Below are positions 115 to 51,757 of a DNA stretch of 64,000 nt, piece by piece. A program made the translations under genes and the position numbers. Source of the stretch: Lingula anatina (taxonomy: Eukaryota; Animalia; Brachiopoda); NCBI GenBank assembly GCA_051362555.1, contig CM120642.1:18414001-18478000 (forward strand), read 5' to 3'. The number at the start of each line of letters is the position of its first letter. Position 1 is the stretch's first letter. A model generated the notes under the pieces. That model saw only the letters and a list, made by a program, of their open reading frames with translations, did not search any database and was not told where the DNA came from.

Positions 115-3100
115 TTGACTCGTCTGAAAAGACAGAGAGCGGAAAAGCGAAGAGCTTTAATTTCTTCAAAAATAGCAGCTTCCAAACAAGAAACACCCAC
201 AGGAGCCAAAAAGCCAAAATTAGGCACCAATGGCCCCACCATAGAAGAGGACAATCACTCTCCATCACCAGCAGAAAAAGAAAGGAAGATCCCTTCAGAG
301 ACAGAGAGCCCTCATGAAAAAGGAAAAAACTTCAGAATTGGTCCACAGCAGATTGTAGCTTCCTTATTCAGAAATAACCCAGAAATACCCAAAGTATCAA
401 GGTTAATTTCTCGATCTTTAGAAAATTTTAAAATGCGATCTATATTTCTGTGTATTACTCTTAAGAGTTTCTATGGTTGAAAGATTTTAGGGGTTTAGAT
501 ACATTTTACTAATGAAAATTAAGAAAATAACTACATCAGTTTTAGAATAATTTATGATTTTATATTACATGCATGTATTTACAATTATTATTAGGTATTT
601 TTCATGTACCTTTTTAGCCATGCAGTTGAACAACTGAAAGAGAAGATATTCTCTTCCGATAAATTTTCGGAGCTTCAGTTACATCCTTTTTTGGTAAGTT
701 TGTGAAATGTTTCCCTTTAATTTGTTTGCTATTAAAATATCCTTGAAGTGACGACAAATATATTCTGATCAAAAAGGTCTTTAATTTGTTTGCTATTAAT
801 TTATCCTGGCAGTGAAGGCAAATATATTCTGATAAAAAAAGGTCAGTTATCTTAAGTTATCCTGAAATCAAAACTGTTAATTCTGTTCAAGCCACTAGTG
901 TCTGAATGTTTTAGATGTAAAAAAAATTGATGTTGAATAAAGTTCATCAGTGTGGTAATGATAGTAAATCACATTATTATGTTCTTCATTATTAATCAGT
1001 GCAACTTGAACCAAGTGAAGACGACAGAATGTATCTTATCATATATAATTATTTAAATTGAGACAGAAGAATGTTTTAGCCTATAAAGAAGTTGATTACT
1101 AAATAAAGTTTGAAGGTTTTTTATTTGATGTTTAGGCTAAGTATTTGGAAGAGAAAATGGGCCTTTGTCACATGACAAGCATTCAACAGAAAAGCATCCC
1201 GCAGATTATATCAGGGCATGACACTTTGGTCAAATCCCAGACTGGATCAGGTATATTGATTTGTCAGTATTGAAAGTGATGATGATGACGAAAATACTAA
1301 TATTATAATTAATTTTAGTTGTTACTTATTTAAAGTCTAAAATCCAACTTTGTTTTAAATCAGTAGATTTTACTCAGATTTTACAATTTTGATAAATGCA
1401 AGTGAGAAGGAAAAACTTGAAAAATACCTTTTATTTCAAGTCTGTTAATTAGCTAAAATTGAATGAATATATTAAGAAATAGGTTTTGTTTAAATACTTT
1501 ATAATAGTGATAAATGTCAAAGATGAAGTTATATCTCATTGCTGAATTATAATTTAATCTTTAATAATTAGGGAAAACGTTGGCTTTTGCCATCCCGGTG
1601 GTCCAACATCTACAAAGTATTGTTCCTAAGATACAAAGGCAAGATGGACCTTATGCTATTGTGATTGTTCCAACAAGAGAGGTAAGTGTTTTGGGGTCTC
1701 TGGTATAAATAAACTACTTTCCTTTCTGTAGATAAAAACATACTGCATTTCATTTTTGTTTATAGAAAAATATTCATAATTTCTTTACTGTTTTTATACT
1801 GTTTCTTCTGCTAACAATAATGTCAGTTTGAATTATAACAAGTGAATTAGATTTTAAGTGTAATTTTTGTGGTTTTGATAATTAGTTTCAATTTCTACAT
1901 TTGTTTATTTCCAGCTTGCTCTGCAAAGCCTTGCAATCTTTCTAAAGTTAGTTCAGGTAAGTTATTAAATACCTTTCCAGTAAGATTGAGATGTACTACA
2001 AGGTAATGAATTAATCTCTCCTTTGGAATGATGCATGAAAACTCTTTGATGAAGTTTCTTAATCCAAACATGTTACAGATAGGTTTTTGAAGTAACAAAT
2101 TGTAATATCTGTGATAAATTTGGAAAAAAATCTGGAAAATATTGTTTTATTTTGCAGATGTATAATTTGCTGCTTGAATTCTACTTTAAATTGCTAGTGT
2201 ATAATTTGATGGATAAATCGGATGTATAATTTGTTGGTTTAATTCTACTTTAAATTGCTAGAATGTCATTAGAAGTAAACATGAATTGGCCATTCATTTC
2301 TTTAACATCTTTTTTATGAGCACAATGTTGAAATGGAATTTCAGTGATTATCAAGTAACTGTCCTTAACTTTTGAAAGTGAAAGTTGTCTCGTTTCAGCC
2401 ATTTCACTGGATTGTGCCAGGGTGCTTGATGGGAGGGGAACGAAAGAAGTCAGAAAAAGCAAGGTTCATGTTTTGTTGTTGTTTCTTAATTAAGAAATGG
2501 AATATGTAAATCAAACCTTATATGAAAAATATTTCTGATCAGGTAGGGCTTCAGAGAGTAAGGAAAAGAATGCGTTAAATGTGTTTATGTGTATTTGTAA
2601 ATGCCGTTTTGAGTGGTGTAAGTGCTAAATTCAAAGAAAACAGTTACTGCTGTGTGGTATTTAATTTTAATCCAGCCTTATTGAGAATATAGAATACAGC
2701 TTGATATTTTGCACAGAAGGCTTTGATAGAATATAAATCTTATAGTTTCTGAAGTTACTCATGAATGGTATTAGTTTCCTGAACATAATTGATCATAATA
2801 ATTATTTCTCATTTGGAAATAATGACAGTTTATAGAAACCTTCTCAAGCATCCATTGTTTATATCTCCAAGGGGTAAGAATGTCTATAACAATCTTGAAT
2901 CAGCACCAAAAATAAACCAGGCGTATCGTAAACTGCACTGAAGGGTAATACAGTTAGTTGATTTGTACCAGAATTTACTTTAATAAATATTTTCAGGCTG
3001 AGGAAAGGCATCAATATCCTCGTGTCCACCCCTGGCCGTCTGATTGACCACGTCCAGAACACAGAGGCTCTGGGACTGACCAAGGTCAAGTGGTTGATCA

Positions 3101-6100
3101 TAGATGAGGCTGACAGGTTGGGATCAGATGGGTCTTTTTTCTTCATCTTTTTAAAATTTAGTTGAATTTTAAAATTATAGTATTATACAACACTCTATTT
3201 GTCTGGTTTTTAGTAATTTTCATTTTTGGTTCAATTTTAATTCAAGTATCTAATACACTCTGAATTACTTCATATTAATCAGCCTTTGTCAAAAAGGCTT
3301 AAAACTATACTCTTCCAAAGCAGAAACTGTGACCAGTAACAGACCATGTTTACAAAATTATTCTGGCTGGCAACAGCTTTAGTTTTATTTATTTATTTTT
3401 TTTTTTGTGACTTGGGACCAGCTTTAACCATCAACAGATCACATTTTCACTTTTTTAAAGCATTGATGAAAGTATATGTCAAGTTGCTGTCCCCATGAAC
3501 TTGTACATTTAAACAACTTTTTTGACACTTTATTTCCAGGCTGTTAGATATGGGTTTTGAAAGAGATGTTGCTCAGATTGTGAACTCCCTGAATGAGAAA
3601 CAAGAAGGACACAGACAAACTGTGCTGCTCTCAGCCACACTTTCGCAAGGTATTAAATTGTTACAAAATTTGATAACAGTAATAACTCTGTCTTTTTCAA
3701 ATCCACTCTACCTCTTGATCTTTTTTTTTTTCTTCTTTTTTTTTAACAAATAACCTCTTCATCCACTAACTCTGTCATTTGCTGGGATTTTCAAACATAA
3801 TATTTGTATCATTGATTCAGAAATTTAATTTGTATATAAGTTCACTCAGTACTTAAAATTTTACAAACATATTATGAACTTGTTTGTTATGCTTTTTAAT
3901 TATATTTGATTAAAATTTATAATGAAGGTTGATGAAAGTTTTACAATGAATAAAAATTAAGTATTTGTCTTCTCTACATTGCATTTTCAACTAAATTGTT
4001 CACTTAAGCATTGAAAAATACTACTGAAATTGATGATAAATATGTAATAACAGATGTTGATGTTGTGGAATTCTGTTATGTATTTTCAAAAAAAATTTGA
4101 CCATCGTTTCAGGGGTGGAAAGACTTGCTGGCATGAGCCTTGTCAATCCCCAGCTCGTAGAGGTCTCCAAACCCGTCACGGACACCAAGGTGTCAAAGCC
4201 AGACAGCGTGACAGTGACACAGACGACTGATGACAAATTTGTGATACCAGAACACTTGCAGCAGCACTTCATTGTGGTTCCTAGTAAACTGAGGCTTGTC
4301 ACCTTGGCAGCGTTTATTTTACAAAAGTGCAAGGTAAATAGACATTTTGTTAGACAAAGAGGGGGAATTGAAACACCTGGAAACAGATCCTCATTTCATT
4401 TTTGGTGTGTCCTTCTTAATTCCTTATGTCAATTTCACCTTATACATTCATTAAAAAAATAGTAATTGTATTGAAATATATTTGCCTCTCAGCCATTCTA
4501 CCATTTGTCACTACTATAAGCCTCCATATGTGTGTGATCTTAAAATTTTATGTTTTTTTACAACTTAATCTTTCAGACATGGTATATTATGTATAACAGT
4601 CGATATTATGATATTGAAACGCTGTTAGGTCATAAAATTTTTTTTATACACTTATAAATAAAATGTCCTTACAGCTCATACAACATCGTATTATATCCTC
4701 ACTCTGGTCTTGCATCCTGACCTGTTATATTACAGCCGGTATTTTCTTACTGTGAATTTTGATATAATTTATTTCAGTATGCTGCAGAGAATAACAAGAT
4801 GGTGGTCTTCATGTCGACCCAGGATTCCACGGAGTTCCATCACTCCCTGCTTGTTAACACCATCGCCAGCTTTAAGGAAGAAGAGGAGGAGGAGGGGGAT
4901 GAGAGAGAGATTGAGATCTTCAAACTACACGGAGATATGGTACAAAAAGTGAGTGGTTTGTGGCCAGGGGCTGCAGCTGGTTTCACCAAAGAACTTAAGA
5001 CCAAAAGGTGGTAATTGCATAACTTTTAGACCCAGTTTTTGGTATGACTTCTTTGATTTAAATGAAAATGTGTAGTAGTCCACCATAATAATGAATTATT
5101 GGTCTGAAAAAGTAGCTGCTTCTTTCTTTTGAATCTTACCCTTATAGTTTTGAACAATTTTCATTTTCAAGTTCTCATTGACTTATGATTACTGGAGAAT
5201 TCTTTAGTTTGGCATACATTTGATTTGATGCATGTTCTGTGTACATTGGCCAGTTTTGCTGGCTAATCTTTTTTTCTCATTTGTATCAGAGGTGTTTTTC
5301 AGTTGGAATGGAATGCTGAAATTGACTGTGAATCATGTATTTTGTTGTGTTTCAGGAAAGAACTCAGGTTTTCCAAGACTTCTCTAGTACTAGATCCGGA
5401 GTACTTCTCTGTACTGTAAGTGTCAAAAAACATTATATTATTGAAATAATATTGATAATAATGAAAAAGTGAAAAGTCTCAATCATTATTGAAATTCATT
5501 TAATGGACTGAGCATAATCTAATAATATATATCAATAATATATATATGTGAAAATCTGATGTGGATTGTTTTGTGTAAATTAAGTCACTGTAATATTTTG
5601 AGAATATTTTTTTATTTTTATTTTTTTCTGGACTGACAATTTTATGACTTTACGTGAAAATTTCAAAGTAGATTTTTGGTTGTTAGACCTGGTAGTAAGG
5701 AAAAATGATAAATCTTTACAAGATTACATACTAGAATGTATGAGGGCTTTGGTAATGTCCAGTAATTATGGTTATTGTGCCTGGGTAGGATGTAGCAGCC
5801 AGAGGGTTGGACTTACCCAAGGTGAAGTGGATTGTGCAGTACAATACCCCAGGGACCCCCACCGAATACATCCACAGGGTGGGGCGGACGGCTAGGGCAG
5901 GGACCAGGGGGAGCTCACTTCTATTCCTGTCTCCCTCAGAAGTGGACTATGTCCAGGTCCTCAATGACCACAAAATAAGGTGAGGACAGCTGCTGCATTG
6001 GCTTGACCAAAGTGATGATTGGTTTTTGATTGGGTAATTTTTGTAATGAGATTGAAATTAAAATAAATCAAAATTCCATTTCATTCTTTTATGCCCATTC

Positions 6101-8371
6101 TACAGCACTCTTAAGTAGAAATACATGGAAAATTTACTATAAAAAACGTCAAGCATTTTCAAACCTATCAAATTGCAATTGTTTAACATTGTGCTGCAAT
6201 TTATTTATTTAGGAAAATTCATCTTCATCTGAACTAAGATTAGCCTGGCTTTCATGGTTTATTATTATGATTAGTACTATTTTTGTTCAGTTTTATTTGT
6301 TGTTGTTGTATCTTGTCATATTGTATATTATTCTGATGAACCACTGGGCTAAAAGATGAATAAATCTAATTGAGTGGATATTAAATTTGTGAATGTGATA
6401 TTAATTGGTTTTTTAGTATGGAGGAAGTTTCTATGAAGGAAGTGCTGCAGACATTGATGGTACTTTGTCAGGAGTTGGCAGAAGGAAGGAAAAGCAAGGT
6501 ATATATGTTGAATTGCATCAGTCTGTACCTATACAGATATCAAATATAAATTTAGTCTTCAAGGGTCATTATGTGCATATTTTGCAGAGAGGGCTTTTTG
6601 TCCCTGATTTATCTGATAGCCTATAAAAAAAATGAAGAAATGATCTCTAAATGGAATAGTTACTGAAAAAATGATGTTTGTAAATTTGACTTGAATATTA
6701 AAATTGTACCTCTTAGTTTGGATAGTTCTGTGCAGCCATACAGAACAGGGCTTGCAAAGGAGACAATTTTGAGCATTTCTTTTAAGCAAGAAGTTCCGTT
6801 TTTATGTATTGAATAATTTTAACATAATTTTGAAATGGTTCAAGCACTCAAATAATACTAATAATGTCAATTAAGTAAGGGAGTTGCTTTTTATAACAAC
6901 TTCATTCTCAAAAAAAAATTTTAGTACAAAATATTGCACGTAATAAAAGGTGGCAAATTTTGAAGTGTTATATGCTCACCTTATGATAAAAACAACAGGA
7001 GTTGATGATTTATTTTAAATAGTATAAGATTGTTTGTTTTTTCTAACTTGGGTGCTGTGGTATTCCAGGGTCGCCATCCACACAGCGTTGAAGAGAGTGC
7101 CACGCTGCTTCAGAACAGATTTGAGACATACCTGTACCAAAACAAAGAAAGAATACAATTAGCCAAAAAAGGTAACAGACTGTCATTTAGCTTTGATTTT
7201 CATGTTCGTTTTGTAGTAACTACTAACTTTGTGATTTTTATTTTTTGTCGACTTTCAAAAAACATTTTACAGAAATAATGTACGGCTCTGGCATAATGCC
7301 TTTAGTTATAATTAAACTGATTAGTTAAAAGTTTTTATATTTTTTTTAACCAAAATAGGGAACAAAATATGCCTTTTTACCAAATTTAAGTATTGCTTTC
7401 AAATCATTGACAAATTTTAACATTCAAATGACTTGTGAATTTAGCCAAAAGGTGGATGTGCATAGCATGTTGTACATAAATGTCAATATTGTTTTCAGCT
7501 TACCAGTCTTTCTTGAGATCATACGCCACCTATCCATCCAACCTGAAGCATATCTTCCATGTGAAGAATCTCCATCTGGGACATGTTGCCAAGAGCTTTG
7601 GTCTGCGTGAAGCTCCAAAACATATCTCCCAGTTCAAAGACAACAAATATGCTGTAAAACTCCAGCGTAAAACTGAAAGGAGGTAAAATTGTTGTTTTTT
7701 CTGAATTTTTGTGACTATCTCTTTATTAATATTGCAAGCTCTAATCAATCTTGTTTCTTTGCAAAGTTACATGGTGACTCGTTCACTGATGTAAGCTCTG
7801 TATTATGTATTTTTACATGTTTTCACATCACTGTTTATGTTGGAGATTTGAGTTTTAATTGTAAAAGGTTTTTGAAGTTCATACTTTGAATTGAAGGAAA
7901 AAACCTCTTTCACTGCAGATACATTGGGTGTTATCACAAAATGGTAATTTATTGGAATAGAATGTAATATCAATATACATAATCAATAAATTTGGAAATG
8001 GAAAATTGGATAATGGTAAAAAAAGGAAAGAAAAAATCTCCCCCGTATAAATGACTGTTGTTGGAGTTCTTACACAAATCTAGAAACTTGGGAAACTTGT
8101 TTCTTGCAAAAGAGGGAACTGTTAAAAAAAAAAGACAATCCCTGTCCTTTAGAAGCTGTGTATTCATACACATATCTGTTAGCCTTCCTGAACATTGCAT
8201 TACAATGAACATTTTGCTTGAAATTTCAGAGAACAGTTGCATAGGGAGGCTTCCCTTCCACACAAGAGGGTCAATATGTCTGAATATGCTAGTGGTCTGG
8301 ATGAGGTAAAAACGGTCAAGAAAAGAAAACCAAGGAACAAAAAGGCTGGAAAATTCAAGAAGAGAAAGTGA
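115..8371 (+). CDS. DDX31: ATP-dependent DEAD-box RNA helicase DDX31/Dbp7 (5'-partial, 16 exons in window, ~692 aa)
   Basis: Exons 115-401, 618-693, 1136-1250, 1572-1681, 1915-1956, 2399-2463, 2997-3116, 3540-3649, 4113-4333, 4778-4948, 5356-5415, 5789-5979, 6417-6498, 7069-7171, 7499-7682, 8230-8371. All introns are GT-AG and the frame is continuous (2079 nt). Motifs: Q-motif ([10 protein letters not shown]), [42 protein letters not shown] (Dbp7/DDX31-typical), [32 protein letters not shown]-terminal [16 protein letters not shown] and SEYASGL. The start codon lies upstream of the window. Confidence 0.95.
716..844. repeat. Two-copy ~64-bp tandem duplication in DDX31 intron
   Basis: tttaatttgtttgctattaa...aaatatattctgat..aaaaggtc occurs at 716 and again at 780. 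Confidence 0.8.
2157..2261. repeat. Direct repeat (64-bp offset) in DDX31 intron
   Basis: gatgtataatttg...aattctactttaaattgctag occurs at 2157 and 2221. Confidence 0.75.
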
Positions 8372-9227
8372 TGAGAAATGGGAACCAGTTTGAAACCTGA
8401 GCTGCATATATAAGTTATTTAAGAACAGGGTGCTGTTTTTCAGCCAATTTAATAATGTAGCTAGTTCAAGCCATTTACAACTATTGCCCAAATTTATTTC
8501 ACATTAAACTGAGACTGCTGCAGAGGACTAAAATTCTGTCACTTTGTTAAAAATTTAACCAATCAGTGACATATTTATCTTTGTTTGTTGGAAAATTTTT
8601 CTTCAAATACAATTTTGTTATTCTTCATTATCAAATCATACTCGCTGAAGTACCCGTTTTGCCCACATGGAGCTATAATTTTTTTATTGTGTTAAATGTT
8701 TGTGTCCATCTCTCCAAACACAATCGGCAATATGCGCATTGCTGTTTTTTTTTTTCAAGATGATACAGTTTAATTGAATGTTTTGGTACAATTTACATTG
8801 TACTGTATTATTTTGTGACTAAACTATTATTTTTACATCCTTTTGTTCAACCATTGATTAATTTTTTCATTGATATGTGGCTCACTAGACCAAGATTGTT
8901 TTTATGAGTAACTTCTGAATCACATAAAAGGCCAAAAAATGAATTTACCTGGGGTAAACGACAATTTTTCCATAATTACCAGTGGTTAATGAATCCATTT
9001 CTACATTCAAAGTTAGTCCCTGTTTTTTTTTTTTTTCTTTAAGGTTTTTTTTTTTCTTTTTTGTAATAATCTCTTAAGAGATAAAGAGCTTATTACAGAA
9101 TAGCCATCTATGGAGGTCACGTGGTCCGATGATAAACAGAGATTTCAGAATAATTGCTATAACTGCCATTTTTGTGGAAGAATAGAATATTTTAAATATC
9201 GAGTTGTTTACAATGCATTTATTGTGA

Positions 9228-9233
9228 AATAAA
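9228..9233 (+). terminator. Probable DDX31 polyadenylation signal (AATAAA)
   Basis: AATAAA about 0.86 kb after the stop codon, followed by T/GT-rich sequence. CpG density rises shortly after it. Confidence 0.4.
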
Positions 9234-9678
9234 GATTTTATACGAAGAGTTGTTATCCCTTTAATTTTATTTTTGAAATGATGGATTCGGTACTTTTAAT
9301 CGCTCTTATATTATTGTGTGAGAGATCTTTATCAGGTTTGTCTCTGACTTTTAAAAGAAAAGCCTTAGGTTGGCGTCGCCGGAAGGTAATGTTATCAAGT
9401 TAGGTTGTAAAAGTTGAAAACAAACAGCACACTGTTTTCCAAGAATGTATCATTCACAAACATGTTTGTGTGAAATTACTTGGATGCTAATTATCACATA
9501 GCTAATTAATATCCAACATTCAAGATTTGGAGGAAATATTACTTTAAGACTTCCACATCTGGGAAATTGCACCTCCCGCAAGAAAGTAGGTTGTTGACTT
9601 TATATGATGTTATGTGTAATTTGACCAAGAAAAACGGAAGTCGTACAGGCGAACGGCTGAGCAAGGGTGATGACTGTA

Positions 9679-9697
9679 CAGTGGCGCCATCTGAAGG
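9679..9697 (-). promoter_or_regulatory. CTCF-like motif just downstream of DDX31
   Basis: Minus strand reads CCTTCAGATGGCGCCACTG, close to the CTCF core CCnnnAGRKGGCRC. Motif match only. Confidence 0.4.
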
Positions 9698-10666
9698 CTG
9701 TTTGTTACGATTGTCAAAGGTTGACTTCTGAAGAGGCCAGCTGTGCAAAATTTCTAAGATTAACTATTGTTATAATATATTATTATTATTGTTATTTTCC
9801 CCAGAATTTTAGAAATGTGAGCAGAAATAGGTAAAAAATCATTAAATGTCTAGCGAAAAAATTCTCCACGGCACTGGTACAATTTAGAAATTATGTCAAA
9901 GGCGTGCACCTGTTGTCACATGGATTGGCAATTCTTTTTCTCTCTCATTTTGTTGTTAAGTACTGTTTTTATAAAATATCTAGTCAACAGTTTCTGTGAT
10001 TGACCAATAATTTATAGTATTGTGGAAGAACGTCTGAGTATTTTATTAATCCTTCATTTCTTTAGTTGGGAAAGGGAGATGGGTTGGGAGACGTTTTTCA
10101 GTCCCAAACTAAGACACACTGGCCACTGATTTTTCAGCTGGACAAAAAATCTTAATAATCTATCTTAATTGTCTGTAGAATGTGCACGCCAAGGTCGGTC
10201 CGTACTATGGGAGACCTATGCCCTTTGGACTGTTACCTAAAAAAAACATGCCTATGCCAACAATCCCCAAACTGCTGTTCCTCTCAAGAATTTCGAATGG
10301 AGATAAGAGAATTCCCCATGACATGTTGAACATTGTTATTATAAACTTCAGTGCTCGAGTAGCCACAGTGATTCAGCGTCTATGAGCTTGGATTAAACGC
10401 ATTATAAACTACTGGGCTGTGCTTGCAAAATGATGGTGTACGAGGGAAAAAGGCACACCACACAAATCTTATGTGTCTGTGAGACAGGTGTGAGAAAAAA
10501 TGATAAATTTTCCTTTCAATAGAAAATGATACTTTTTCAATAATGGAAACATCTTTTTGGACCATACTATATTATTCTGGGCCCTGTATCTTGAGGAAAA
10601 AATCAAAACTTTCTTGGGATTTACTAGCCTCGATAAAACAGTGAAATTTAATGTTACTGTTAGCTT

Positions 10667-10670
<4 letters not shown>

Positions 10671-10719
<49 letters not shown>

Positions 10720-10726
10720 TTTTTTT
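10671..10726. repeat. (AT)n microsatellite followed by poly-T
   Basis: Direct reading. Confidence 0.9.
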
Positions 10727-11441
10727 GCAATTGGAGAGGAGACTGGGTGATTGGACATTTTGAAGAAAACCTTTTTATCTAGCTATAATAGACAATTGGT
10801 AGGATAAACATATTCTACGGTATAATGTAGGTGTTGGATAGCAGAAGTTGATTTAATCACGTAGAGGATGTTAGCAGTGCAAAGTTATACAACCTGATAT
10901 ACTTTATTATATATTTATGATTATATTGCACATTGGTGGTGCGTTGTGAAATACAAGTATACCGGTGTAACAGGAATGGAAGTCCGCTAGGAACCGCAGT
11001 CCGCTCCCCATTTCTTTGTACAGGTGACATTCGTCCGAAATACTAACCCCAGTAATGCAACTAACCCTTACCTGTAATAATCATATGGGACCCCGGAAGC
11101 TTAAAGAAGGGCTATGTATCCCCCATATCTCGTCATTGCAAAGGATACCAATATATTTAGTTAAAGAAAAAACAAAAGAAAAAAGATAGCATTGAGACAG
11201 ATACCATGTGGCGAATTTCAGCTTAAAGCAATATTTATAAACTCGGGATTTGATACAGAAATGTTAGCTCTCGGAAACAATATCATTTAAGCAGTTCAAG
11301 ATTTTTTAAGTGATCCATAGACTTATGGCGTCTACGCCCCTACAACAATTTGTATTCAACTACAAGAGCGCGAGCGCATGATGATAAACTGTATATGTAA
11401 AAAATAATAACAATAACATTGAGCGTGTTCGAATTCTAAAA

Positions 11442-11497
<56 letters not shown>

Positions 11498-11499
11498 CA
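11442..11499. repeat. (CT)n(CA)n compound microsatellite
   Basis: Direct reading. Confidence 0.9.
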
Positions 11500-11633
11500 T
11501 AAATGCACACACAAGAATCTAGCCTAGTAGGGATTCCGCGGCAACTTGTATTTTACATTTTTTCCAGTCACTCTATCTCATTCACATACAAAAACATACC
11601 CTTCACGGGCAATGTAGTCATAATAATTTTAAG

Positions 11634-11800
11634 GCAATTATTGCTATCCTATTATTAATGCAAAACATCTGATGGTTAATTTTTTTCCTTTCAGAAATTA
11701 TTTCTAAGATAAATGCAATTATTGCTATCCTATTATTAATGCAAAACATCTGATGGTTAATTTTTTCCGATCAGAAATTATTCCTAAGATAAATGCAATT
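11634..11800. repeat. Two-copy ~81-bp tandem repeat
   Basis: gcaattattgctatcctattattaatgcaaaacatctgatggttaatt...ctaagataaat starts at 11634 and 11715, near identical. Confidence 0.9.
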
Positions 11801-14377: not shown

Positions 14378-14411
<34 letters not shown>

Positions 14412-16159: not shown

Positions 16160-16163
<4 letters not shown>

Positions 16164-36956: not shown

Positions 36957-37280
36957 CAGGGGCGAATCCAGGATTATTTGAAGGGTTAAAATATAATACA
37001 ATAGTTAAAATACAATACAATAGTTAAAATACAATACAATGGTTCTCGACTTCGTCTGGAACGACAGGCCTCGGATGCAAAGCCGACCATTACCCCACTT
37101 GGTGTGGGGTTCGGGGCCTGTTCAGGGTCCCCGAAATTTTTTTGAGAGCAAACAGTACCCTTTGGTACGGTTTAGAACTAGTCAAAATTCTAATTTAATG
37201 AGGGAAATATTGGTGTGATATATTTTTCAGAAACCGAAGTGGGGTCAGGCCCCCCCTGACCCCTTCTAAATCCGCCACTG
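36957..37280. mobile_element. Non-autonomous TIR element (CAGGGGCGAATCC...ATCCGCCACTG), 5-bp TSD TTACA
   Basis: Imperfect TIRs, TTACA immediately on both sides, and an internal segment shared with 33800-33937. Confidence 0.7.
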
Positions 37281-40200: not shown

Positions 40201-40815
40201 ACTTAATTCCCGTTTCTGCAACTTCTTTGTTGCAGTGCTTCATCAGTATTCTTACAGAGCGGTGAGAAACGCCGCGGTGTTCCAATATAGCTAATTTAGC
40301 ACATTAGCCGTAGAGGAAATCTAAATCACGAAGAAAAAAAGTAGAGGAAAAACGATATCTTTCAAACACAGCTATGTCATTAGTTTAGTCTATTAGTCGA
40401 TACGTCTTCACCATTGTACAAAAATCACTTCGCCGAAAAATGATAATTTACCCGATTTCCTCCTTTTATTACTTTCCGTATGAGCGACCGCCAGAAACGA
40501 GTTATTTTTCACGAAACACACGCTGCGCTAAAACGTAATTTGTCTTCAATTTAATACCTATCAGCGCCGATCAATTGCTATAGAGTCGATGTAATAGAAG
40601 CAAAATAGAATGAAAACAATATTTAGACGTCTGACAAGAGCTTTGTTAAAGATAGGCTAAGAAGTCGATTGCTCTCAGCGTCTCAAGAACTCAGTTGTGC
40701 TACTGAATTCTAAGTGACGGACTAATTTACTGGCTTAGATGAAGAAAAAGGAGTCACTTCCCCCGGACACAGTTCGGCAATCATCGAGGTGTGATCTCTG
40801 CGAGTCTGTCACGGC

Positions 40816-40829
40816 GTCACCATGGCAAC
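40816..40829 (+). promoter_or_regulatory. Consensus RFX X-box upstream of BarH
   Basis: GTCACCATGGCAAC fits GTHNYY-AT-RRNAAC exactly. Motif match only. Confidence 0.45.
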
Positions 40830-43241
40830 GGTTTGTTGGAGGAAATGGGCAGTGGCAAAACAAGAAGACTTCCTAGCGAGCAGTTAGACGAAGATCAATG
40901 GATTTCATTATTTCTTTTGATAAACTCCGGGCTCCAAGAATACGACCTTTCGTTTATTTTTCTTAGCGCAAATACTTCTTTCTGGTGCCATTTTCGTTAA
41001 ATTGTTTTTGTCGATAAATTTGAAGAATGCCAATATATTCGGACATATTGCCCCACACACCATATTTGCTCGATTTTGACCATCCGCATTAAACGAATGG
41101 TGTTTAAACTTATGGTGATGATAGAGTTATAGTTGCAAGAATGGCAGCTACAAGAGTATGTCCATATAGAGTGAGACTTATACTACATTGTATATATGGA
41201 AATTTCAGGAGACTTGTTTTTCTCAATTCATTTTTACTTCTCTTAACATTGGTGGTACAGACAGGCACTGGCTACAGTTTGATTGTAAGACTGTTTCTTA
41301 AAGAAACTATAGTAATATAGTTTCTTTCGGAACTTCCCTTTCCATTACGTCATTATAAGTAACGAACAAAGTCCCGCGAGAAAAAACGAAAATTCCGACC
41401 CTTCTGTTGTGAAGCCAGTAATGAAAGATTTGACATGACAAAAGAGAATGAATAGTCAAATGGATAAATGAAAACAGAATATATTTCTTCACAGGAATTT
41501 TAAATTGAAATCCATTTGATTATTTTAAAAGGAATGGATTTTCAAAGTAAATACATTTAAAATGCACGTCATTTTGAAGCGGGCGGGGAAAAATACTAGA
41601 TTTTTATTAATGACAATAAATACAAACTAATACATATTTGTCGCTAAAATACTTTCATTTTTATGCGATTTACCAGCGTTTTATGAAAAATTCACTTGGT
41701 GTTGGCCAACTGTTTATGGAGTCAGTTGTAGCAGTTACAATACTTTCCTCAGCTAATTCCACGTCCTTGTATTTTGACAGATTGAGCACAGTTGTTATCA
41801 ATGGGTTAATGAACTTAATACATTTTCCTTGTAAACACCGGAGAACTGACACCGTTAAAAGCATAGTCATACTGAGGCCTCTCCCACTTCCTTTTTTCTT
41901 CAAACTTAAATTCCAAATCCCACCTTTACAAAATCTAGGAAGTTATGCCGCGCCCAGGTAGCAATTCAGCGCCGTCAAACCATTCTACAAACCATATGAG
42001 GTTAGGGCGATAAAACTTACAGATACCCTTTTAAATCACGCTTATCGTTAAAGAACCGCGACGATAGGGAAAAATATACGACTCGTTACCTCCATCCGAC
42101 GATAAGAATCACTGGTTGAGTCGGTGATTTATTATCAAGCGTTGAGAACTATCTAACCTCCGGCTTTTTAACAATAACAGTGTGATCTCGGGGTAATTAT
42201 GATAAGGGTTGTGTTCCTTGTGACTAAATACTTTTATTTTTCTTACTGCAGACTATTTATGTCGTTACACCCTAAAATGAAGAAATCCGCCAAAGGCTGT
42301 GTCCAAGAAAGAGATGGCCTTTGACCAATCAAATGTCGAGATTTGCTCCACATCTAAATTTCTTCAAATTGCGTGTTTTCGAATCACTGTCTTAAAGCGG
42401 ATTTCAGATAATTATTGTACCTGTAAATGTTACTCATTTCAGATGTTTTAGATAAAAATTAAGCTATGTTTACGTTTAAATAAATGAGTAGGACATATTG
42501 AAAGCTAAAGGTAAGAAGGGGCAGATTTCAGTTTTGGATGTGTCAAAGCTCCTGCCAATTTGACTGGCAGATAAAATGCTTAAAAATCAAGACGTGCAGT
42601 ACAGTGGCACCGCTACTGATCACCGGGACGTCTTGTATTTCTTTGTAAAAATTAACACCGTAACTGAAAATAAACCTCCCATGACACGACAAATGCCAAG
42701 ACATAATATTCGAAAACAAGTCACCAGTCTCCCGTGGAACCCATGTCGCCGCAGTGGCAGGTATATGTCAGTGCTATTCCGTCTTGTACGATGACAAATG
42801 TGTTTTTTATTTGCACGAACAAAGTGGTTCAGTTTTACAGCGATCATTTTTGTTGCTGAGAGTAAGAAAATCATGTCTCGCGGGATCATTTGGCGACCTA
42901 CAAGCAAAATATAGTTACCCTGTACACACTACACAATGTCGCTATATTGGAGTCTTTCTTATTAGGTGTTTGAGGCCATGACCTACGTATTAAACTGAAC
43001 TACACACATTTCAAATTACTTAACTACATACGACAAAGAAAAAGATAACGACGTGGAGATTATGCTGGTGTATGGTGGTAAGCTAATTATCTTGAAGGTA
43101 CTTAAAAAAAAAAAGAAACACAGTGAGATATTTTTTTCAAAAAAATTGTTGGGGTTAGATTTTGGAAAATAAGAAAGACGATAATGAACATATAAAAAAA
43201 TCCCGGTAATTATATATATACTTATAGATTTTGAAAAATTA

Positions 43242-43244
<3 letters not shown>

Positions 43245-43287
<43 letters not shown>
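43245..43287. repeat. Poly-A tract (43 nt)
   Basis: Direct reading. It sits at the 5' edge of the CpG-rich BarH promoter region. Confidence 0.9.
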
Positions 43288-43288
<1 letters not shown>

Positions 43289-43299
43289 ACCTCAAAATC

Positions 43300-44271
43300 T
43301 TCTCTGCTAGGCAACCCACAAATTTGAAACGAGTTGTAGGACCAATAAGAAAAAAATTGAACTTTCTTTTGCTGAAGGACTGGTTCGTCTAATAAATTCT
43401 CCCAGGTTCAAGTACGTAGGCACACGCTGTATCTCGTCTCCCCATCGTAGCGGACGGAGACCCGTCACGTGGTAGTGCTAATCTTAGTTTACCGGAGTGT
43501 TAACGAGCTTTTCCTAAACCAACAGCTATGAATAATAATTTCTCCACTTCCTCTGTTGACAGAATAGTCGAACTGTTATCATCGTTGAATCTGTATTTGA
43601 CAACTCGCGCCGCCCCTCCCCAGCGATAGCACTGAAGGGCTGCCGTGTCGTCCATCCGGTCGAAATAAACCAATGAAAACGCAGAAGCAGCTCAGTCACC
43701 CGCTAATGACTTAATGCGCTGCTTTACTCACTTGTTAGGAACGCGCGACCCGGGCCTCGACTACTTCTAATGTTTTATCCAAACGTGGGTGAGTACAGGC
43801 AGCATCCCTCGTCAGGATCTAATGGCGTAAGGATGTTATAAAGGTGCCCCTAGTATGGATAGTAAAAAACCAGCTGGTGATGGAATCGCGGCGGAGTTGA
43901 TTATGTCTTTATTACAGTGTATCACTTGTCGAGTGGTGTTAAACATCGACGAGAGAGCGCGGTGGAAGGACATATGATGCCGATGAAAATTTACCACTTA
44001 GCCTTGACAGACGCGTAAAGTACCGGGGTAATTCTGTGTAAGCTGCATAGTGGAACACCGACCCAGTGAGCTGTGGACAAACACGAGTGCAACTGCGCTG
44101 AGAAAGCTTAGGGGTCGAACTGAGCACGGAATCTCACGTGGAACTGCAGATTTCAGCCCCAGTTGAAATATACAAGAAAAAAGTGTCAACATTTATTAAG
44201 CCATTACACATATCAATCGGCACCAGAAAAAAGCAGGGGATTTGGTGAAAATATAGCAGAACTCGGTCACA
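43300..44271 (+). promoter_or_regulatory. BarH promoter / 5' UTR region (CpG-rich)
   Basis: CpG-rich. Contains X-box-like CTGCTAGGCAAC (43304-43315), CCAAT boxes, a GC box, TATAAA (43837-43842) and a CAGCTG E-box (43871-43876) ahead of the ATG at 44272. Confidence 0.5.
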
Positions 44272-47200
44272 ATGAGTAGTCCGTCGAAGTATGACATAAA
44301 AGCTCTGGTGGCGACAAGTAAGACGACAGGTTTAGCTGACACGGGGAATGATACAGGTGAAGAAAAACAAGAGGAACGAAACAGAAAAAGACCCCGGTCT
44401 GTGTCACCGGCGTTATCATCCCCGACGGCCTCAGAAGCTGACTCGCCAGCATCAAATATTTCAAAGAGAGGGGAGGAGGCACCGAGTGAGAAAAAGAAAC
44501 GAAAAGACAGTACTGAGGAGGGGGAGGCTAAAAGCAATGCCCCTGTCAGTGTTACACCGCCCTCCGCGCGTCCAAGCTTTTTGATCACAGACATCCTAAG
44601 TGACAGACATCCCGTGAGAGCACCTAGGCCGTCACCCCCGTGTATAAGTGTGTCCATTCCTTCTTCTTTAGACTTTTCCATGAAAAACGTGTCCCCTACT
44701 TCCTCAGTCGGGAGCCTGGGGTCCATGTCAACGCTACGAAGCGACCTTACACGAGACAAGAAATATAACAAACTTAAAACCTCTTGGAGCGACAAGATTT
44801 CACGATCTAAAGAAATTGACGTTTTAAATAACGAAGATGACGAGGAAGATGATGAGGAGTATGATGACGATTGTGAAGGTAAGATATAGGCCCCCTATCA
44901 GAGGTTTTGCGATACAGGTTTTGAATGGCTTAAATAAAAATGACACAAATTTTCAGAGTGTGATCGAGGTGTATTAGGTGTGGATTGTGATGAATCACAA
45001 CGTTGATATTACTCAATATGTGTTAAGATTTCCAAATAGAAAGGCAGCATATTTAATTCCCATTTTAAAATAACCTAATACATTAAACATTAAAATAAGG
45101 CAATGCGTCTTATCCCCTTCCCCCTAAAATTACTTTCGGGGGCTTATTTCTCAGCGGACCAAAGTTGATTAGTAATAAACGTGTTTATTGTCAGTAAAAT
45201 TTTGGATTCACAAAGTCAATTGTACAGCGTAATACAATGAAGGGGACCCTTTTAAATCCAACCTAACACAAAAATAAACCCCCATACACCTGCTATGTGG
45301 ACAGTACATTAAGAGAGATGATGCGATGAGGCATGGCCCGAGGCTGGATCGAGGGGCTAGATTTTTTAACTTTTTGTTTCTCGACAAAAAGAAGCAATTT
45401 TGTGTATTTAGCGTGCTTCACCTGACATAGGCGTTGAAAGGTTTATGGGAATTTTTGTGATTCTTTTGAACCCCCTCAACTTGGATAGCGCCCCGAGGAT
45501 AAACAATTTTGCTAATTCCGCGACATTTATGATTATCATTTGAACAGAGCTGACGCGCCTCATAATGGTTACAATGCGAATAAAACAGGTTCATCTTTGT
45601 TCAAGCTTTATTGAAATGCAAATTGAGAAAATATCTGTAAAGCAGCCTTCAGAAACGAAGATAAAAGTCATCTCATTCGCGTGCTGCTCAAGGGGGGGCG
45701 TATTGTTTTAGAACCGTAGTTAACATCAGAACACCTTTCCAAGTGATTTGCGGAGAAAAAGGAGTAATTTGCGAAGACTAAAGGCTCGTCGAACCGCCGT
45801 TTTAATGGAGACAGCGGTGCCTAGTCCCTTAAATAACTGGCAGGTTTTTAACATAACGGTCTTTTATCATGAACTATGTAGGATAAATGACCTATAACCA
45901 GAGAACGCTTTTACCTCTGCGTGATGGCTCGTTGGCATTAAAATATTTTCTCCATTCATGTAAACGTTCTCATGATATAATTTTAAAGAACCATTTTTAA
46001 TTCCTGCAGAATCTAAGATAAAAATATTTAAAATATCATATATTATATATCATATCTAATAGATAATTTAAATTCGAGTACCATAAACAAACTTTCCGTA
46101 ATTATTATTTTCATTCATTCATACACAAGTAAAAACAACTGAAGTAACATTTTACGCTTGGCTTGGACCAACCACGGATTAACTGTCATATGCGGGAAAA
46201 CAAAAAAAAAAATTACCATAGGGGTAAAACAATCAGAATAGGGGATTTTACCCAATAAATTATATATATAACCCAGAGTTGAATCGTTGTGATGTCACCC
46301 CCGGACCTCCCGTGTACCAACATATTAGGCCAGATTAGTAATTTTCGTGTCAACCCAAATTGCTTTTGTTTGAAATTGACACTGGAAATCGACAATTTTG
46401 GTTCATAATTAGCTATACCTGTAAAACAATTGCCGGAAATGCCAGGCGTTACGTTTAATCGACGTAAAACGAGCTAAGAAATAATAGTGACATGCGAAAC
46501 GTTGGACAAAACGTCCAGGACAAAATATATCTTCTTATTGGACTTAGTCACAGGTATCAATAGTATATAATAACAGGTTCATTCGTGAACAATCGGGCTG
46601 GCACCCATATGAGAAAAGGATGTGGCCGGCACCTATTGTGAGCTAAAACGTCCACCCCTACACTTAACCGGTAATTTGCAAAATCTCCTTTTGTTGTGAG
46701 AAGTGGCAATTTAATGGCGAATTTGGCGTTTTGTTCATACATTTTCAGCATTTTCTGCTAACTGAAAACACGGTCACTGTTGCTCCTGAACACTGCCGTG
46801 ACGTAACTGACTTCCGTATCGTATGAGTTGGCTGAATTCTACGGGGGGTGAAATTGACAACGGGCGCCAGTTAATTGGAAATTGTTCTGATAAGTGCGGA
46901 GCTGCCAATTTTAAAATGTTAATACCCAATATCAATACTTCTTTTCCAAACATGGGGGTCCTGACAGTTGCTGACAAAAATACGGGAGACAGGGTGTGAA
47001 ATTGAGTTATATCACGGGAAACAAGGCATAATGGACGGGACCATTTTCGCTAACAGTGGCTGTTGTTTTTTTACGCTTGCCACGTATGAGATATTTCAAG
47101 GAAAACATTTTATATGCACTCCTCAAATGATGTTTAGACACAAAAAAATATGATGCCTTTAATTATTCAAATATATTGGACAGGTATAGGCATAACATTT

Positions 47201-50200
47201 AAGAGGAAAACCTTCCCACGGTCTTTTCATTAAAAAAAAAAAAAAAGAAACCAAAAAGTGCAGATACGCTGAAGGATATGCTGGCTCTTAGAATATATTG
47301 TCGTTTGTCGTTATAAGGATGCGGGCTATCGGGTTCCATTTAGGTACACAAAAATAGATAGATTCTCCACACCGTTGACATCTTTTGTGTTCATTTTGTA
47401 TAAAAGACAATGCATTAGTAGCGTTCCGCTTTTTCGGTCGCTTTCGCAACGTGTGAAACTGTTCTCATTCCATGGAAAATATTACACACTTGCTAGTACG
47501 CAACTGTTTCGCTAATTATTGTCGCGAATATTCCATAGCTTCGTTGAATTTCTTTGTGGCTTTTTTAACAACGAGACAAAAGGTTCGACAAAGGACGTTA
47601 TCATCTTAGATAATTGTAGAATAAATCGGATGAAATTAAAAGAAAGAAAAATTTAAATGGCATTAGTTCCACTGTCTTGTTGGCGTAAGCGTTCACTTTC
47701 GTGTCGCAGGCGGCAGTGAACAAAAAAACGCTTGCGTTTAAATGGGTTATTAGCAGCATTTAGCAAGGCTAAATAGCTTAAAAGGAAAAATTAAACCATT
47801 TAAAGAAAATTGACTATTTTTTCTCTTTGTGTTTGTAACGTTCTGGCTTGATATTTTCCTTGTTCAACTTGCGAAGGCGAAAGCGACCGACAAATTATCG
47901 TCATTTTCTAACATATGCTGCACTTTTCCCTTCCCATTTAATGCATACAGAATTATGAGAAAAAAACATCCTGTGTTTTTAAGTTAAATGTATTCGTGGG
48001 AGATTAAAATGTTTTTGTTTTTGGAAGAATATATTTCAAATATCGTAAATTCACATGTGTTTGGTGAATTCAAATGTATGGCACATGTTCATCAGCTGTG
48101 CGTGAAATTCGTTCGTTTTACCGTGACAAACGGGCTTGGGCAACCTCATGGACTCTTTCTGATTACCAGAACAATTTTCTCCGTCTAATTTATCAAGTGT
48201 CGTAAGAACGTTATGTGCATAGAAAGTACTGACATTCGATATGCCAAAACAATGGGATAAATTATTCATATAATTGCTCCCCCTGTCCAAGCCATACGCC
48301 TGGTAAATTGACGCTTTTGTTCCAGAGTTTAAGGGAAAGGGAAAAAAGTCATTATGACAATCACGTGGTCCATTGTGTTTTGCCGATTTTTCTTCGCCAT
48401 TAAACAGAAAACCAAAAACTTGAATATGCAGAGTAAAAGCGAACGCATTTTGCCACTTTTTGTTTAAATTGCGAACAACTTGAAGTTGTAATTCTTCGAA
48501 TATTTAGACCAATATTTAAGTGTATGTTAAAGCTTAGTTTGTTATTGATGCGTTGGTATGATGGTTTAATTTGATGTTTAGAATGGCAGTAGTATTTTTT
48601 TATTATTATTTTCGTGAATATAAAAAATTTGCGAGTTGAAATCTCCACTTACTTTTTTGCTGTGATACGATAACTAAGCCTTGGGGTCATTGATTGTTTC
48701 ATGGTAACTTACTGTTTGTTCAGTTTTAAAATCCTTTCGTTTTTAGTGTTACAAAACATGTATTTGTACTTATTTTCTTAAATTTGTTGAACCGTCACTG
48801 GTATCGCAGTGATGTACGCCAAGAAGGATTTTTTGCCGTAGAAGAATTAACTACTGCCGCTGTGTGGAGATTAATTTGTTCTCCTTTCGAATAATAATTT
48901 CCGCGTTTCAAAAATAATAAATAAATAAATAAATAAATAAATGAATAAAAGTAATGAAATAAGAAATAGTTAATAATACTGACTGACAACTTACTAATAG
49001 CGACATAAATACCTCTTACTCATAATAGTGCGTTAAAACTGTACAGCTTCCTTTTACTCTTGACCACCGCAAACACTTAGGACATTACAGTGAATCAGTC
49101 AAATGTCTTAAAGTCAAACTGGCTTTTGATTTAAGGACACGATAATTTGTTTGCTGATGGTGTGTAATATATGAGTGGTTTTGCCTGCCAAACGGTCCGA
49201 CCACAACAATCTAGTAGTCATGCGAAGTACCGGTTAAACTGTCAACAAAATATTCAGCGACAGGGAATTTCCATCTCGCGCTTAAAACCCCAAATCGTTT
49301 AGGATTTAAAAACATTTATTTTGATATCATTTGATTGAGGTTTCAGGCCTTGGTTCTCTGATCTTACCCAGAAGCAAAACTCATTCAATAATTCAGAAGA
49401 TGAGAGAATCGTTTCTTTTTTTATTTCAGTAATTAATTCACTTGTTTTTATTTCCTGGTGGAAGCGTTCAAAATGATAATGCAATACACGGATATAGGAG
49501 GGGGACAAACGATTGGGAAAACATTAATGTTTTCATTAAAAAATATTGAAGATGTATAACCACTTCGTCTTGAAATGTCAGATTGCGTGAGGGTACCCAA
49601 TATGAATCATTCTTAAATACAGGTTACGATTTCACCGCAAGGTGGCAGCTCAACGGATGGTCTACATGAAATCATCCGCCATAATAGCATGTATGTTATC
49701 ATACATAGTTCACTTTGTTATATATGAGGACAAATTACACGGTTTAGGCTAACGTAGGAAGTTGGTGTTTATATACCTGTAATTATCTGTGCACCTGCCA
49801 GTGGGGAAGTTATATGAAAGGACGTCATTTTGTGAATTGCATTGATGGTAAATCTAACTGTCTTAAATATTTTCCGATCGTGACTAAAGTATCAGGCTTA
49901 TCTCATTATTTTTGGGTGAGCTTGGGGCGTTTCGTAGACGTGTAATTGTGGTTCGCGAGGGATGGTTTTAAAATTTATTAATCACACTTATTTTGTTTGT
50001 AATAATGCTTCATGCATTTGTTGTAAATACTGTCAAATATATGTAAATAAATTGAGAAAATCGTTTCATGTTTAAGGGATATGCATCATACAGATGCGCC
50101 AACATATTGTCAGTAACACAATGATGGATTTGAGATTTATTCATAGACCCCCCCCCCTCAAAAAATAAATAATAAATAAATAAAAAAGGGGGACGCAGCT

Positions 50201-50621
50201 GCAACAAGCACATGATGGCAATCATTTATGGACAGTTTGATCGAAATTCATGATAAAGCCTTACAAGACCTTCGAACAGAGCGCGTACAAATGACAAACA
50301 AATATATTGTAATTGTCTAATGGCAGTATAACGCAGACGACATAAAATACACCGATTTTTACAGCACCTGACATATTTAGGGCGTGACGCGACTTCTCAC
50401 ATGTTGTTGCACCCCAGGCAGAGAGAAACGCCATTGAAAACATTCACGCCTTGTCGAGATTCAGCAAAGTGAACTATTTGCCTCACACAAAAGAGGTTAA
50501 ATTCTCATCTGTTACAGAAGACAGATAGTTTTAAAAAACTTTTTGAAACTGTAAACGGCTGCCGTTGCTGTAGGTTATACACGTTTCAGTTAATATTTGT
50601 TGGGTTGAAATATTGGAGCAG

Positions 50622-50711
<90 letters not shown>

Positions 50712-51757
50712 TTGATTTCTGGAATGTAATATATTTACATAAATCCAATGAGTTAAATTCAATAAAAATATTACAATGATAATAATTACGTTTGTGTCGG
50801 TGGCATTTTTACTACCAGAAATGATCAAACTTCAAGCGGTAATTAGTCAACCAACAGGATTGGATAATATTCTAGCTACAATTTAACAAATCCCTTGATT
50901 ATTTCCAGATAAAAGTGACGACGAAAAATGTCACCTCAACAGTGATGGCAGCCCGGCCGACGCCTCCCAGAAGCCAAAGAAACCTCGCAAAGCTCGCACC
51001 GCCTTCACCGACCACCAGCTCAACTGCCTGGAGAGGAGCTTTGAGAGGCAGAAGTACCTCAGCGTTCAAGACCGAATGGAGCTAGCAGCGCAGCTTAATC
51101 TCACCGACACACAAGTAAAGACGTGGTACCAAAACAGAAGGTGCGTGATCAAACAAGCAAACAAATAAATAAATAAACAATAAATAAATAAACATATAAA
51201 TAAATAAAGGAAATAAGCTGATAAATGAATGAATTAATTTGAGAAATAAGCTGACAAATGAATAAAAACTCAAATGATATTTAAAAGTAAAAATTCAAAT
51301 AAAGAACACCAATTCACATTATAAGTGACTCAAATCCCTAGGATGGAATATATGAGTAAAAAATGAAAAAGTAGTCGTATTCAGGAAGGTATGCGGCTGA
51401 TGAAAAAGATAAAGATCTCACATGCGCGTTTCGCAGTCCTCTGCATACCGAGTTATGAGACTAATTGATTTTGGTTTTTTTATTCATTCCAGAACGAAAT
51501 GGAAGCGCCAGACAGCTGTTGGACTAGAACTACTTGCAGAAGCTGGAAATTACGCCGCGGTTCAAAGAATGCTGCAGTCTAATCCTTATTGGGCCGCGTA
51601 CACCCCTCACATCATCCGCGGGATGGATGCCGTGTATCTACGTCATCCGGCTGCTGCGGGACTAAACTCATCTCTAATACCCCGGATGTACGTCCCAGGA
51701 CTCTCCCCACTTACTGCCACTTCTACTTCTCCACTGTACGGTGAAAACAGATCATAA
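44272..51757 (+). CDS. BARHL: BarH-like (BARHL/B-H) NKL-class homeobox transcription factor, 3 exons, 367 aa
   Basis: Exons 44272-44878, 50909-51140, 51493-51757 (1104 nt, in frame). Homeodomain [59 protein letters not shown] carries the Bar-diagnostic Tyr49 (WYQN). It is followed by the BARHL-conserved [14 protein letters not shown]. An eh1/FIL motif SFLITDIL lies in exon 1. Confidence 0.95.
49633..49650 (+). promoter_or_regulatory. CTCF-like motif in BarH intron 1
   Basis: CACCGCAAGGTGGCAGCT matches the CTCF core CCGCnAGGTGGCAG. Motif match only. Confidence 0.4.
50624..50711. repeat. (TG)n(AG)n compound microsatellite
   Basis: Direct reading. Confidence 0.9.

What the first reader, a model, noticed from the sequence alone, without database searches (positions are those of the whole stretch)
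115..51757. DDX31 - CFAP77 - BarH: the human 9q34 trio kept together in an invertebrate (candidate ancient bilaterian regulatory block)
Seen: three adjacent genes, DDX31(+), CFAP77(+) and BarH(+), with no other gene found between them. Known: human 9q34.13 has CFAP77(+), BARHL1(+), DDX31(-) as direct neighbours. The CFAP77-to-BarH tandem orientation is the same here, while DDX31 sits on the other side but still points its 3' end at the block. Inference: a three-gene linkage preserved since the common ancestor with vertebrates, typical of a genomic regulatory block in which a developmental TF holds bystander genes because its enhancers lie in or beyond them.
Basis: partly seen in the sequence, partly recalled or inferred. 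Interest (0 to 1): 0.8.

Follow-up and report, generated by a model that had tools for sequence, protein, structure and literature searches.

The report
Known BarH gene block, in brachiopod
A lamp-shell (brachiopod) genome keeps the developmental gene BarH beside the same two unrelated genes that flank its human counterpart; this ancient linkage is already published, and it is likely held together by BarH control switches in or near the neighbours, which is untested in this animal.

Summary
Open reading frames for DDX31 (115-8371, 5' end outside the window), CFAP77 (24344-32253) and BarH (44272-51757) lie in tandem on +. No gene was found between them, though the first gap had no RNA check. 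BarH and DDX31 are 99.5% and 97.8% identical to Lingula anatina RefSeq proteins, which share one 915,667-bp scaffold. Touceda-Suarez et al. 2020 (PMC7530604, Tables S1/S4) list BARHL1-DDX31 (4 non-vertebrate species) and BARHL1-CFAP77 (3; ancestry 'Bilaterians') as one multi-bystander ancient regulatory block, with duplicated conserved elements inside human CFAP77. Lingula was not among that paper's nine de novo genomes, so this is at most a new instance. Added here: (1) one inversion of the CFAP77-BarH unit converts the human order (strands recalled) into this one, so DDX31's 3' end facing the block is no separate evidence; (2) in 3 of 3 molluscs with ordered accessions, CFAP77 and Bar share a chromosome but are 71-1,199 entries apart; (3) a TTAATT-rich stretch in CFAP77's last intron (about 31.3-32.1 kb) is a candidate BarH enhancer. 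Enhancer function in Lingula is untested.

The parts
115..8371 (+). DDX31 DEAD-box RNA helicase gene (bystander); 16 exons in the window, first exon(s) lie left of the window; CpG-depleted body (o/e 0.27)
   Evidence: Model; 97.8% over 417 aa to P0184, named DDX31 of Lingula anatina XP_013382285.1; P0184 scores 281-369 bits against 7 DDX31 proteins versus 139 for the best DDX18 chain in the PDB; CpG
8372..24343 (.). 16.0-kb gap, no gene found; CpG o/e 0.86; possible part of the BarH regulatory landscape (inferred)
   Evidence: no RNA check
24203..24243 (+). Likely CFAP77 proximal promoter motifs: exact palindrome TCTCGCGAGA (24203-24212) and a weak X-box-like site (24231-24243)
   Evidence: Palindrome: 1 match, 0 of 100 shuffles (picked by eye first). 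X-box-like site at chance level window-wide, 6 seen vs 5.8 expected. Motif meanings recalled
24344..32253 (+). CFAP77 (C9orf171, PF14825) ciliary protein gene (bystander); exons 24344-24433, 24899-24995, 25385-25489, 25996-26128, 28589-28802, 32125-32253; CpG o/e 0.42
   Evidence: only CFAP77 chains hit in the PDB, 5 of 5; 63 of 63 hits carry PF14825, best 66% over 256 aa to Lineus CFAP77
31290..32100 (.). TTAATT/TAATT[AG]-rich stretch in the last CFAP77 intron; candidate homeodomain-bound enhancer (inferred, untested)
   Evidence: 8 TAATT[AG] per 600 bp vs about 0.7 in shuffles, top two of 212 windows; AATTAA 11 vs 1.8 and ATTAAG 8 vs 0.8 rank 3 and 2 of 2,079 hexamers for best local cluster, TAATTA alone ranks 277; motif chosen after seeing it by eye
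32254..44271 (.). 12.0-kb gap upstream of BarH, no gene found; CpG o/e 0.95; holds a dispersed repeat at about 36950-37270
44272..51757 (+). BarH (Barhl-family homeobox gene), presumed target gene; exons 44272-44878, 50909-51140, 51493-51757; CpG o/e 1.02
   Evidence: 99.5% over 367 aa to P0064, Lingula anatina XP_013382311.1; PDB best BARHL2 104 bits vs 68 for the next family entry, 2dmt; homeodomain and following [13 protein letters not shown] motif shared with the 39 aligned Bar proteins

Best explanation
DDX31, CFAP77 and BarH lie side by side in this brachiopod as they do in humans, a copy of the published ancient BARHL1 regulatory block (GRB257), likely kept together because BarH enhancers lie in CFAP77's introns and the gaps around it. 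Shown: gene identity, order and adjacency. Published: the same pairs in other non-vertebrates, and conserved elements inside human CFAP77. Inferred: the human and brachiopod orders differ by one inversion of the CFAP77-BarH unit, with a breakpoint next to the DDX31 3' end, which left all three genes within about 50 kb. Inferred: DDX31 and CFAP77 are bystanders with their own promoters and methylated bodies, while the CpG-intact gaps, BarH intron 1 and the TTAATT-rich end of CFAP77 intron 5 hold BarH enhancers. Breaks that would separate them from the BarH promoter would be selected against.
For: Published: PMC7530604 Table S1 lists BARHL1=DDX31 (4 non-vertebrate species), BARHL1=CFAP77 (3) and BARHL1=AK8 (1), all 'MULTI BS'; Table S4 gives ancestry 'Bilaterians' and two duplicated conserved elements in CFAP77 paired with copies near BARHL2. 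The Irimia 2012 screen behind the DDX31 pair reports a false discovery rate under 0.0002. A BARHL1/DDX31 super-enhancer is described in human tumours (PMC4911170 passage). Barhl1 and Cfap77 promoter regions contact each other in mouse cochlea (PMC12568336). Here: orthology; tandem, not head-to-head, orientation; L. anatina chromosomes are described as heavily fused with mixing (PMC13121700), so survival of the trio is not trivial; single-inversion path; CpG contrast; motif cluster.
Against: No enhancer, conserved element or chromatin contact is shown in the brachiopod. No non-coding match to the window was found in 80 metagenome Bar loci, but only 13 of them reach 8 kb. CFAP77 and Bar are 71, 377 and 1,199 GenBank entries apart in Solemya, Pinctada and Biomphalaria glabrata, so those lineages seem to live without the adjacency. 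The brachiopod CFAP77 spans only 7.9 kb versus 163 kb in human. The direct BarH-DDX31 contact of humans (2.7 kb) is absent here. TAATTA enrichment of conserved elements was reported in insects and vertebrates but not in worms or sea urchins (PMC6730951), so the motif argument is weak for a brachiopod.
Confidence: 0.65

Rival explanations
1. Neutral relic: the three genes were neighbours in the bilaterian ancestor, and this lineage has simply not broken them apart; any constraint acts only in vertebrates or has lapsed.
For: CFAP77 and a Bar gene share one record in 10 of 16 other spiralian species where both could be placed, yet are apparently not adjacent in 3 of 3 molluscs with ordered accessions. 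That is what slow within-chromosome shuffling gives. Small bystander introns; no functional data in Lingula.
Against: Two separate neighbours retained. The pairs recur in several non-vertebrate lineages under a screen with a low false discovery rate. Vertebrate conserved elements sit in the bystander. Lingula chromosomes are reported as fused with mixing.
Confidence: 0.25
2. Co-regulation rather than bystander capture: BarH and CFAP77 share enhancers because both are used in ciliated sensory cells, and DDX31 is carried along.
For: Barhl1 and Cfap77 are both called hair-cell genes and their promoter regions contact each other in mouse cochlea (PMC12568336 passages). The CFAP77-BarH unit kept its internal order and orientation through the inversion.
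Against: Tandem orientation with a 12-kb gap, not a shared head-to-head promoter. CFAP77 has its own promoter-like motifs (weak). It does not explain DDX31, which has the wider published support (4 species).
Confidence: 0.08
3. Chance or convergent reassembly of genes that share one ancestral chromosome.
For: The order differs from human. With small linkage groups and loose windows a few such triples are expected genome-wide.
Against: The same pairs are published for several other lineages. One inversion explains the difference.
Confidence: 0.02

Closest known systems
Ancient GRB257, BARHL1 with bystanders DDX31, CFAP77 and AK8 (Touceda-Suarez et al. 2020, PMC7530604, Tables S1, S3, S4; DDX31 pair sourced from Irimia et al. 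2012, PMC3514665)
   Same: Same target gene family and two of the same three bystanders; assigned bilaterian ancestry
   Different: Lingula is not among the nine de novo genomes and the word does not occur in that supplement. The paper treats pairs, not the trio's order. The species behind its ancestry keys could not be decoded. AK8 cannot be checked in this window.
Vertebrate barhl1 genomic regulatory block (Kikuta et al. 2007, seen only as cited in PMC3235082) and the BARHL1/DDX31 super-enhancer (PMC4911170)
   Same: Conserved synteny around Barhl, with enhancers near or in the neighbours
   Different: Human order is CFAP77-BARHL1-DDX31 with 8.9 and 2.7 kb gaps and a 163-kb CFAP77. Here it is DDX31-CFAP77-BarH within 52 kb, with a 7.9-kb CFAP77, and glycoside hydrolase genes follow BarH.
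Tested cross-phylum blocks Islet-Scaper and Otx-Ehbp1 (PMC7530604 main text)
   Same: Developmental homeobox gene linked to an unrelated gene since early animals
   Different: Those have 4C contacts, also in amphioxus, and Islet-Scaper has reporter assays; I saw no such test for the Bar block in any invertebrate.

Membership tests
Genomic regulatory block (GRB) | Contains a developmental transcription factor as target | tested here: met
   Barhl-family homeodomain and flanking motif
Genomic regulatory block (GRB) | Unrelated bystander genes stay linked over long evolutionary time | tested here: met
   DDX31 and CFAP77 adjacent here; the same pairs published for human and non-vertebrates; apparently lost for CFAP77 in 3 of 3 molluscs with ordered accessions
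Genomic regulatory block (GRB) | Not a head-to-head co-regulated pair and not tandem paralogues | tested here: met
   All three on + in tandem, three unrelated families; co-expression itself not tested
Genomic regulatory block (GRB) | Conserved non-coding elements in bystander introns or gaps | tested here: inconclusive
   No related animal genome was available; no match in 80 short metagenome loci; only a motif cluster in CFAP77 intron 5. Published for vertebrates
Genomic regulatory block (GRB) | Enlarged regulatory space around the target | tested here: inconclusive
   Gaps of 16.0 and 12.0 kb and a 6.0-kb BarH intron 1 against sub-kilobase DDX31 introns; no genome-wide background
Genomic regulatory block (GRB) | The elements act on the target promoter across the bystander (3D contact, reporter activity) | not testable with these tools
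   Needs 4C or Micro-C and reporter assays in Lingula
GRB257 (BARHL1-DDX31-CFAP77-AK8) | Genes are orthologues of BARHL1/2, DDX31 and CFAP77 | tested here: met
   by best hits, scores and source names; no gene tree with paralogue outgroups was built (the Bar tree held Bar genes only)
GRB257 (BARHL1-DDX31-CFAP77-AK8) | AK8 also linked | not testable with these tools
   No AK8 seen in the window; it would be expected left of DDX31, outside the window, and no genome is held

The most novel reading that the evidence does not exclude
Lingula keeps the most complete compact copy of the ancestral Bar regulatory block seen in a spiralian, and the TTAATT-rich end of CFAP77's last intron (about 31.3-32.1 kb) is a working BarH enhancer, the protostome counterpart in role of the conserved elements inside vertebrate CFAP77. 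That would be direct evidence that this bystander has hosted Bar enhancers on both sides of the protostome-deuterostome split.
Probability: 0.25. Interest if true: 0.55.

Novelty: already known. Interest (0 to 1): 0.27.

Why it matters
The general claim is already in print, so it changes little. The brachiopod copy is useful as a test bed: target and two bystanders fit in 52 kb, and one inversion separates it from the human layout. If BarH enhancers are shown inside CFAP77 here, it would be one of few functionally confirmed cross-phylum regulatory blocks in a spiralian. It would also show that the constraint keeps genes in one neighbourhood without fixing their order.

Tried and rejected
No whole genome is held for this window, so the neighbours left of DDX31 (GTF3C4 and AK8 in human, recalled) and any second Bar gene could not be checked. 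The third homologue search used P0269, which proved to be a salmonid DDX31; the 120 listed of 3,529 hits were fish where named. I therefore have no DDX31-Bar placement of my own for any invertebrate except Lingula; 10 further DDX31 representatives gave no species shared with the Bar or CFAP77 lists. RefSeq XP numbers were rejected as a measure of adjacency: Lingula DDX31 and BarH are 26 apart, so the Lineus gap of 496 says nothing. Metagenome Bar loci: 80 kept of 290, too short; no DDX31 hit and one weak CFAP77 hit (E 0.008) that I treat as noise. No RNA holder was listed for window 1-8500; only same-species raw runs were offered. No read data were obtained for the DDX31-CFAP77 gap. The Bar tree has little support around the window's gene and does not settle which mollusc paralogue it matches. 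Literature: 0 papers for DDX31+BarH+synteny; 6 for barhl1+ddx31 and 3 for barh+cfap77, none on invertebrate synteny by title; so the prior art sits in a supplement only. Irimia 2012 supplements could not be read and may name the four species. Kikuta 2007 is not held. The Robert 2022 block table, which includes Lingula, had no BARH, DDX31, CFAP77 or C9orf171 entry in the stored part, but the file was cut when stored. The Lingula genome paper PMC13121700 has no BarH, DDX31 or CFAP77 mention in its text or 3 held supplements. The X-box-like site is at chance level. Earlier findings of this scan: none returned.

Full report
Verdict. The trio is real and the regulatory-block reading is the most likely one, but that reading is already published. 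What is left is a new species instance, a simpler account of the order change and one candidate enhancer.

What is in the window. Exon models built from window coordinates give three open frames on +. DDX31 runs from 115 to 8371 over 16 exons; the window starts inside the gene. CFAP77 runs from 24344 to 32253 (6 exons, 255 aa) and BarH from 44272 to 51757 (3 exons, 367 aa). BarH is 99.5% identical to P0064 and DDX31 97.8% to P0184, both named Lingula anatina in RefSeq and both on a 915,667-bp scaffold. The window is therefore from L. anatina or a very close relative (inference). No Lingula CFAP77 entry appeared among the 63 hits.

Orthology. CFAP77 exon 5 hits only CFAP77 chains in the PDB (5 of 5, best sea urchin, E 9e-25), and all 63 homologues carry PF14825. 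The homeodomain scores 104 bits to BARHL2 and 68 to the next family entry, and shares the motif after the homeodomain with 39 aligned Bar proteins. P0184 scores 281-369 bits against seven DDX31 proteins and 139 against the best DDX18 chain. No tree with paralogue outgroups was built.

Nothing between the genes. 147 of 171 gap frames were scanned; none reached a Pfam cutoff. Rfam found nothing. Four RNA runs on 34100-43200 showed depth mainly on a dispersed repeat near 36950-37270, where most reads ran on into unlike sequence; the stretch had no control exon. The gaps keep their CpG (o/e 0.86 and 0.95), whereas the DDX31 and CFAP77 bodies are depleted (0.27 and 0.42) and BarH is not (1.02). Reading this as gene-body methylation of the bystanders rests on general knowledge of invertebrate methylomes. 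The 16-kb gap has no RNA check.

Prior art. Touceda-Suarez et al. 2020 (PMC7530604; I read main-text parts 1-4 of 5, supplement part 1 and searched rows) list BARHL1=DDX31 (4 non-vertebrate species, source Irimia 2012), BARHL1=CFAP77 (3) and BARHL1=AK8 (1) as a multi-bystander ancient block. Table S4 assigns 'Bilaterians' to the CFAP77 and AK8 pairs and lists two duplicated conserved elements in human CFAP77 with copies near BARHL2. The species order of the ancestry keys was not in the passages I saw. Lingula is not among the nine de novo genomes. Irimia et al. 2012 (PMC3514665; part 1 of 7 and passages) allowed up to four intervening genes and report a false discovery rate under 0.0002; its supplements could not be read. 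Passages of PMC3235082, PMC4911170, PMC12568336, PMC2745767 and PMC2831330 show the vertebrate block, a BARHL1/DDX31 super-enhancer and a Barhl1-Cfap77 contact in mouse cochlea. PMC2781166 (passages) mentions three proposed amphioxus elements near BARHL2. I found no paper stating the trio in Lingula, but one relevant table was cut when stored and one supplement was unreadable.

The order change. With human as CFAP77(+) BARHL1(+) DDX31(-) (order from Table S3; gene ids and strands recalled), 1 of 6 possible single inversions gives the window's layout: flipping CFAP77 and BarH together. So DDX31 need not have moved, and its 3' end facing the block is a by-product. Which order is ancestral is unknown.

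Other spiralians. Using the record lengths given with each protein, CFAP77 and a Bar gene share a record in 10 of 16 species: Lineus, Solemya, Haliotis rufescens, H. cracherodii, Pinctada, Mercenaria, Biomphalaria glabrata, Magallana gigas, Crassostrea angulata and C. virginica. They do not in H. rubra, Potamilus, Plakobranchus, two Saccostrea and B. pfeifferi, mostly fragmented assemblies. Where submitter accessions can be read as gene order (an assumption, supported by the consecutive tags of the two Solemya Bar genes), the distance is 71 (Solemya), 377 (Pinctada) and 1,199 (B. glabrata). The CFAP77-Bar adjacency thus seems lost in these molluscs while chromosome linkage persists. This is the main result against a strict constraint. 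I could not place DDX31 in those species.

Candidate enhancer. The 3' end of CFAP77 intron 5 has 8 TAATT[AG] sites per 600 bp against about 0.7 in dinucleotide shuffles, the top two of 212 windows. I saw the cluster by eye first, so I ranked all 2,079 hexamers by their best local cluster: ATTAAG and AATTAA in 31401-32100 rank 2 and 3 (p 2-3e-6 uncorrected), while TAATTA alone ranks 277. After correction for all hexamers and windows this is suggestive only. TAATTA enrichment of conserved elements is reported for vertebrates and insects, not for worms or sea urchins (PMC6730951 passages). No sequence match was found in 80 short metagenome Bar loci.

Mechanism and odds. Ancient homologous linkage: about 0.95. 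Linkage still held in this lineage by BarH enhancers in or around CFAP77: 0.65, inferred from the vertebrate data, the tandem layout, the wide CpG-intact gaps and survival in a genome described as fused with mixing (PMC13121700 passages). Neutral relic 0.25, shared regulation in ciliated sensory cells 0.08, chance 0.02.

Score. Already known at the level of the claim; interest 0.27. It would rise to about 0.55 if the intron element proved to be a BarH enhancer.

Noticed in passing
window 57850-59516 and 62267-63896 (- strand; last exons 58042-58632 and 62459-63049): Two tandem copies of a glycoside hydrolase gene (Pfam PF11790, E about 1e-39), 93% identical over 1,079 bp: a recent duplication directly 3' of BarH, where human has DDX31.
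   Followed up: partly
whole window, e.g. 115-8371 and 24344-32253 versus 44272-51757: Sharp CpG mosaic: o/e 0.27 and 0.42 in the DDX31 and CFAP77 bodies, about 0.9-1.0 in the gaps and BarH, as expected from gene-body methylation.
   Followed up: partly
proteins: Many molluscs, Owenia and Pycnogonum have two Bar genes on one record (consecutive tags in Solemya and Patella). Only one Bar gene lies in this window and only one Lingula Bar protein was among the 120 listed. Whether Lingula has a second is open.
   Followed up: partly
window 36950-37270, similar piece near 33800-33900: Dispersed repeat that draws RNA reads from other genomic copies in all four runs.
   Followed up: no
window 24203-24212: Exact TCTCGCGAGA palindrome 132 bp before the CFAP77 start, absent from 100 shuffles; recalled as a promoter motif of animal genes.
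   Followed up: partly
window 28855-29061 and 59003-59156: Imperfect palindromes (75-80% self-complementary), possibly small inverted-repeat elements; one lies in CFAP77 intron 5.
   Followed up: no
window 19800-20700 and 12001-12600: Weaker TAATT[AG] clusters in the DDX31-CFAP77 gap (4 vs 0.6 and 5 vs 1.1 expected).
   Followed up: no
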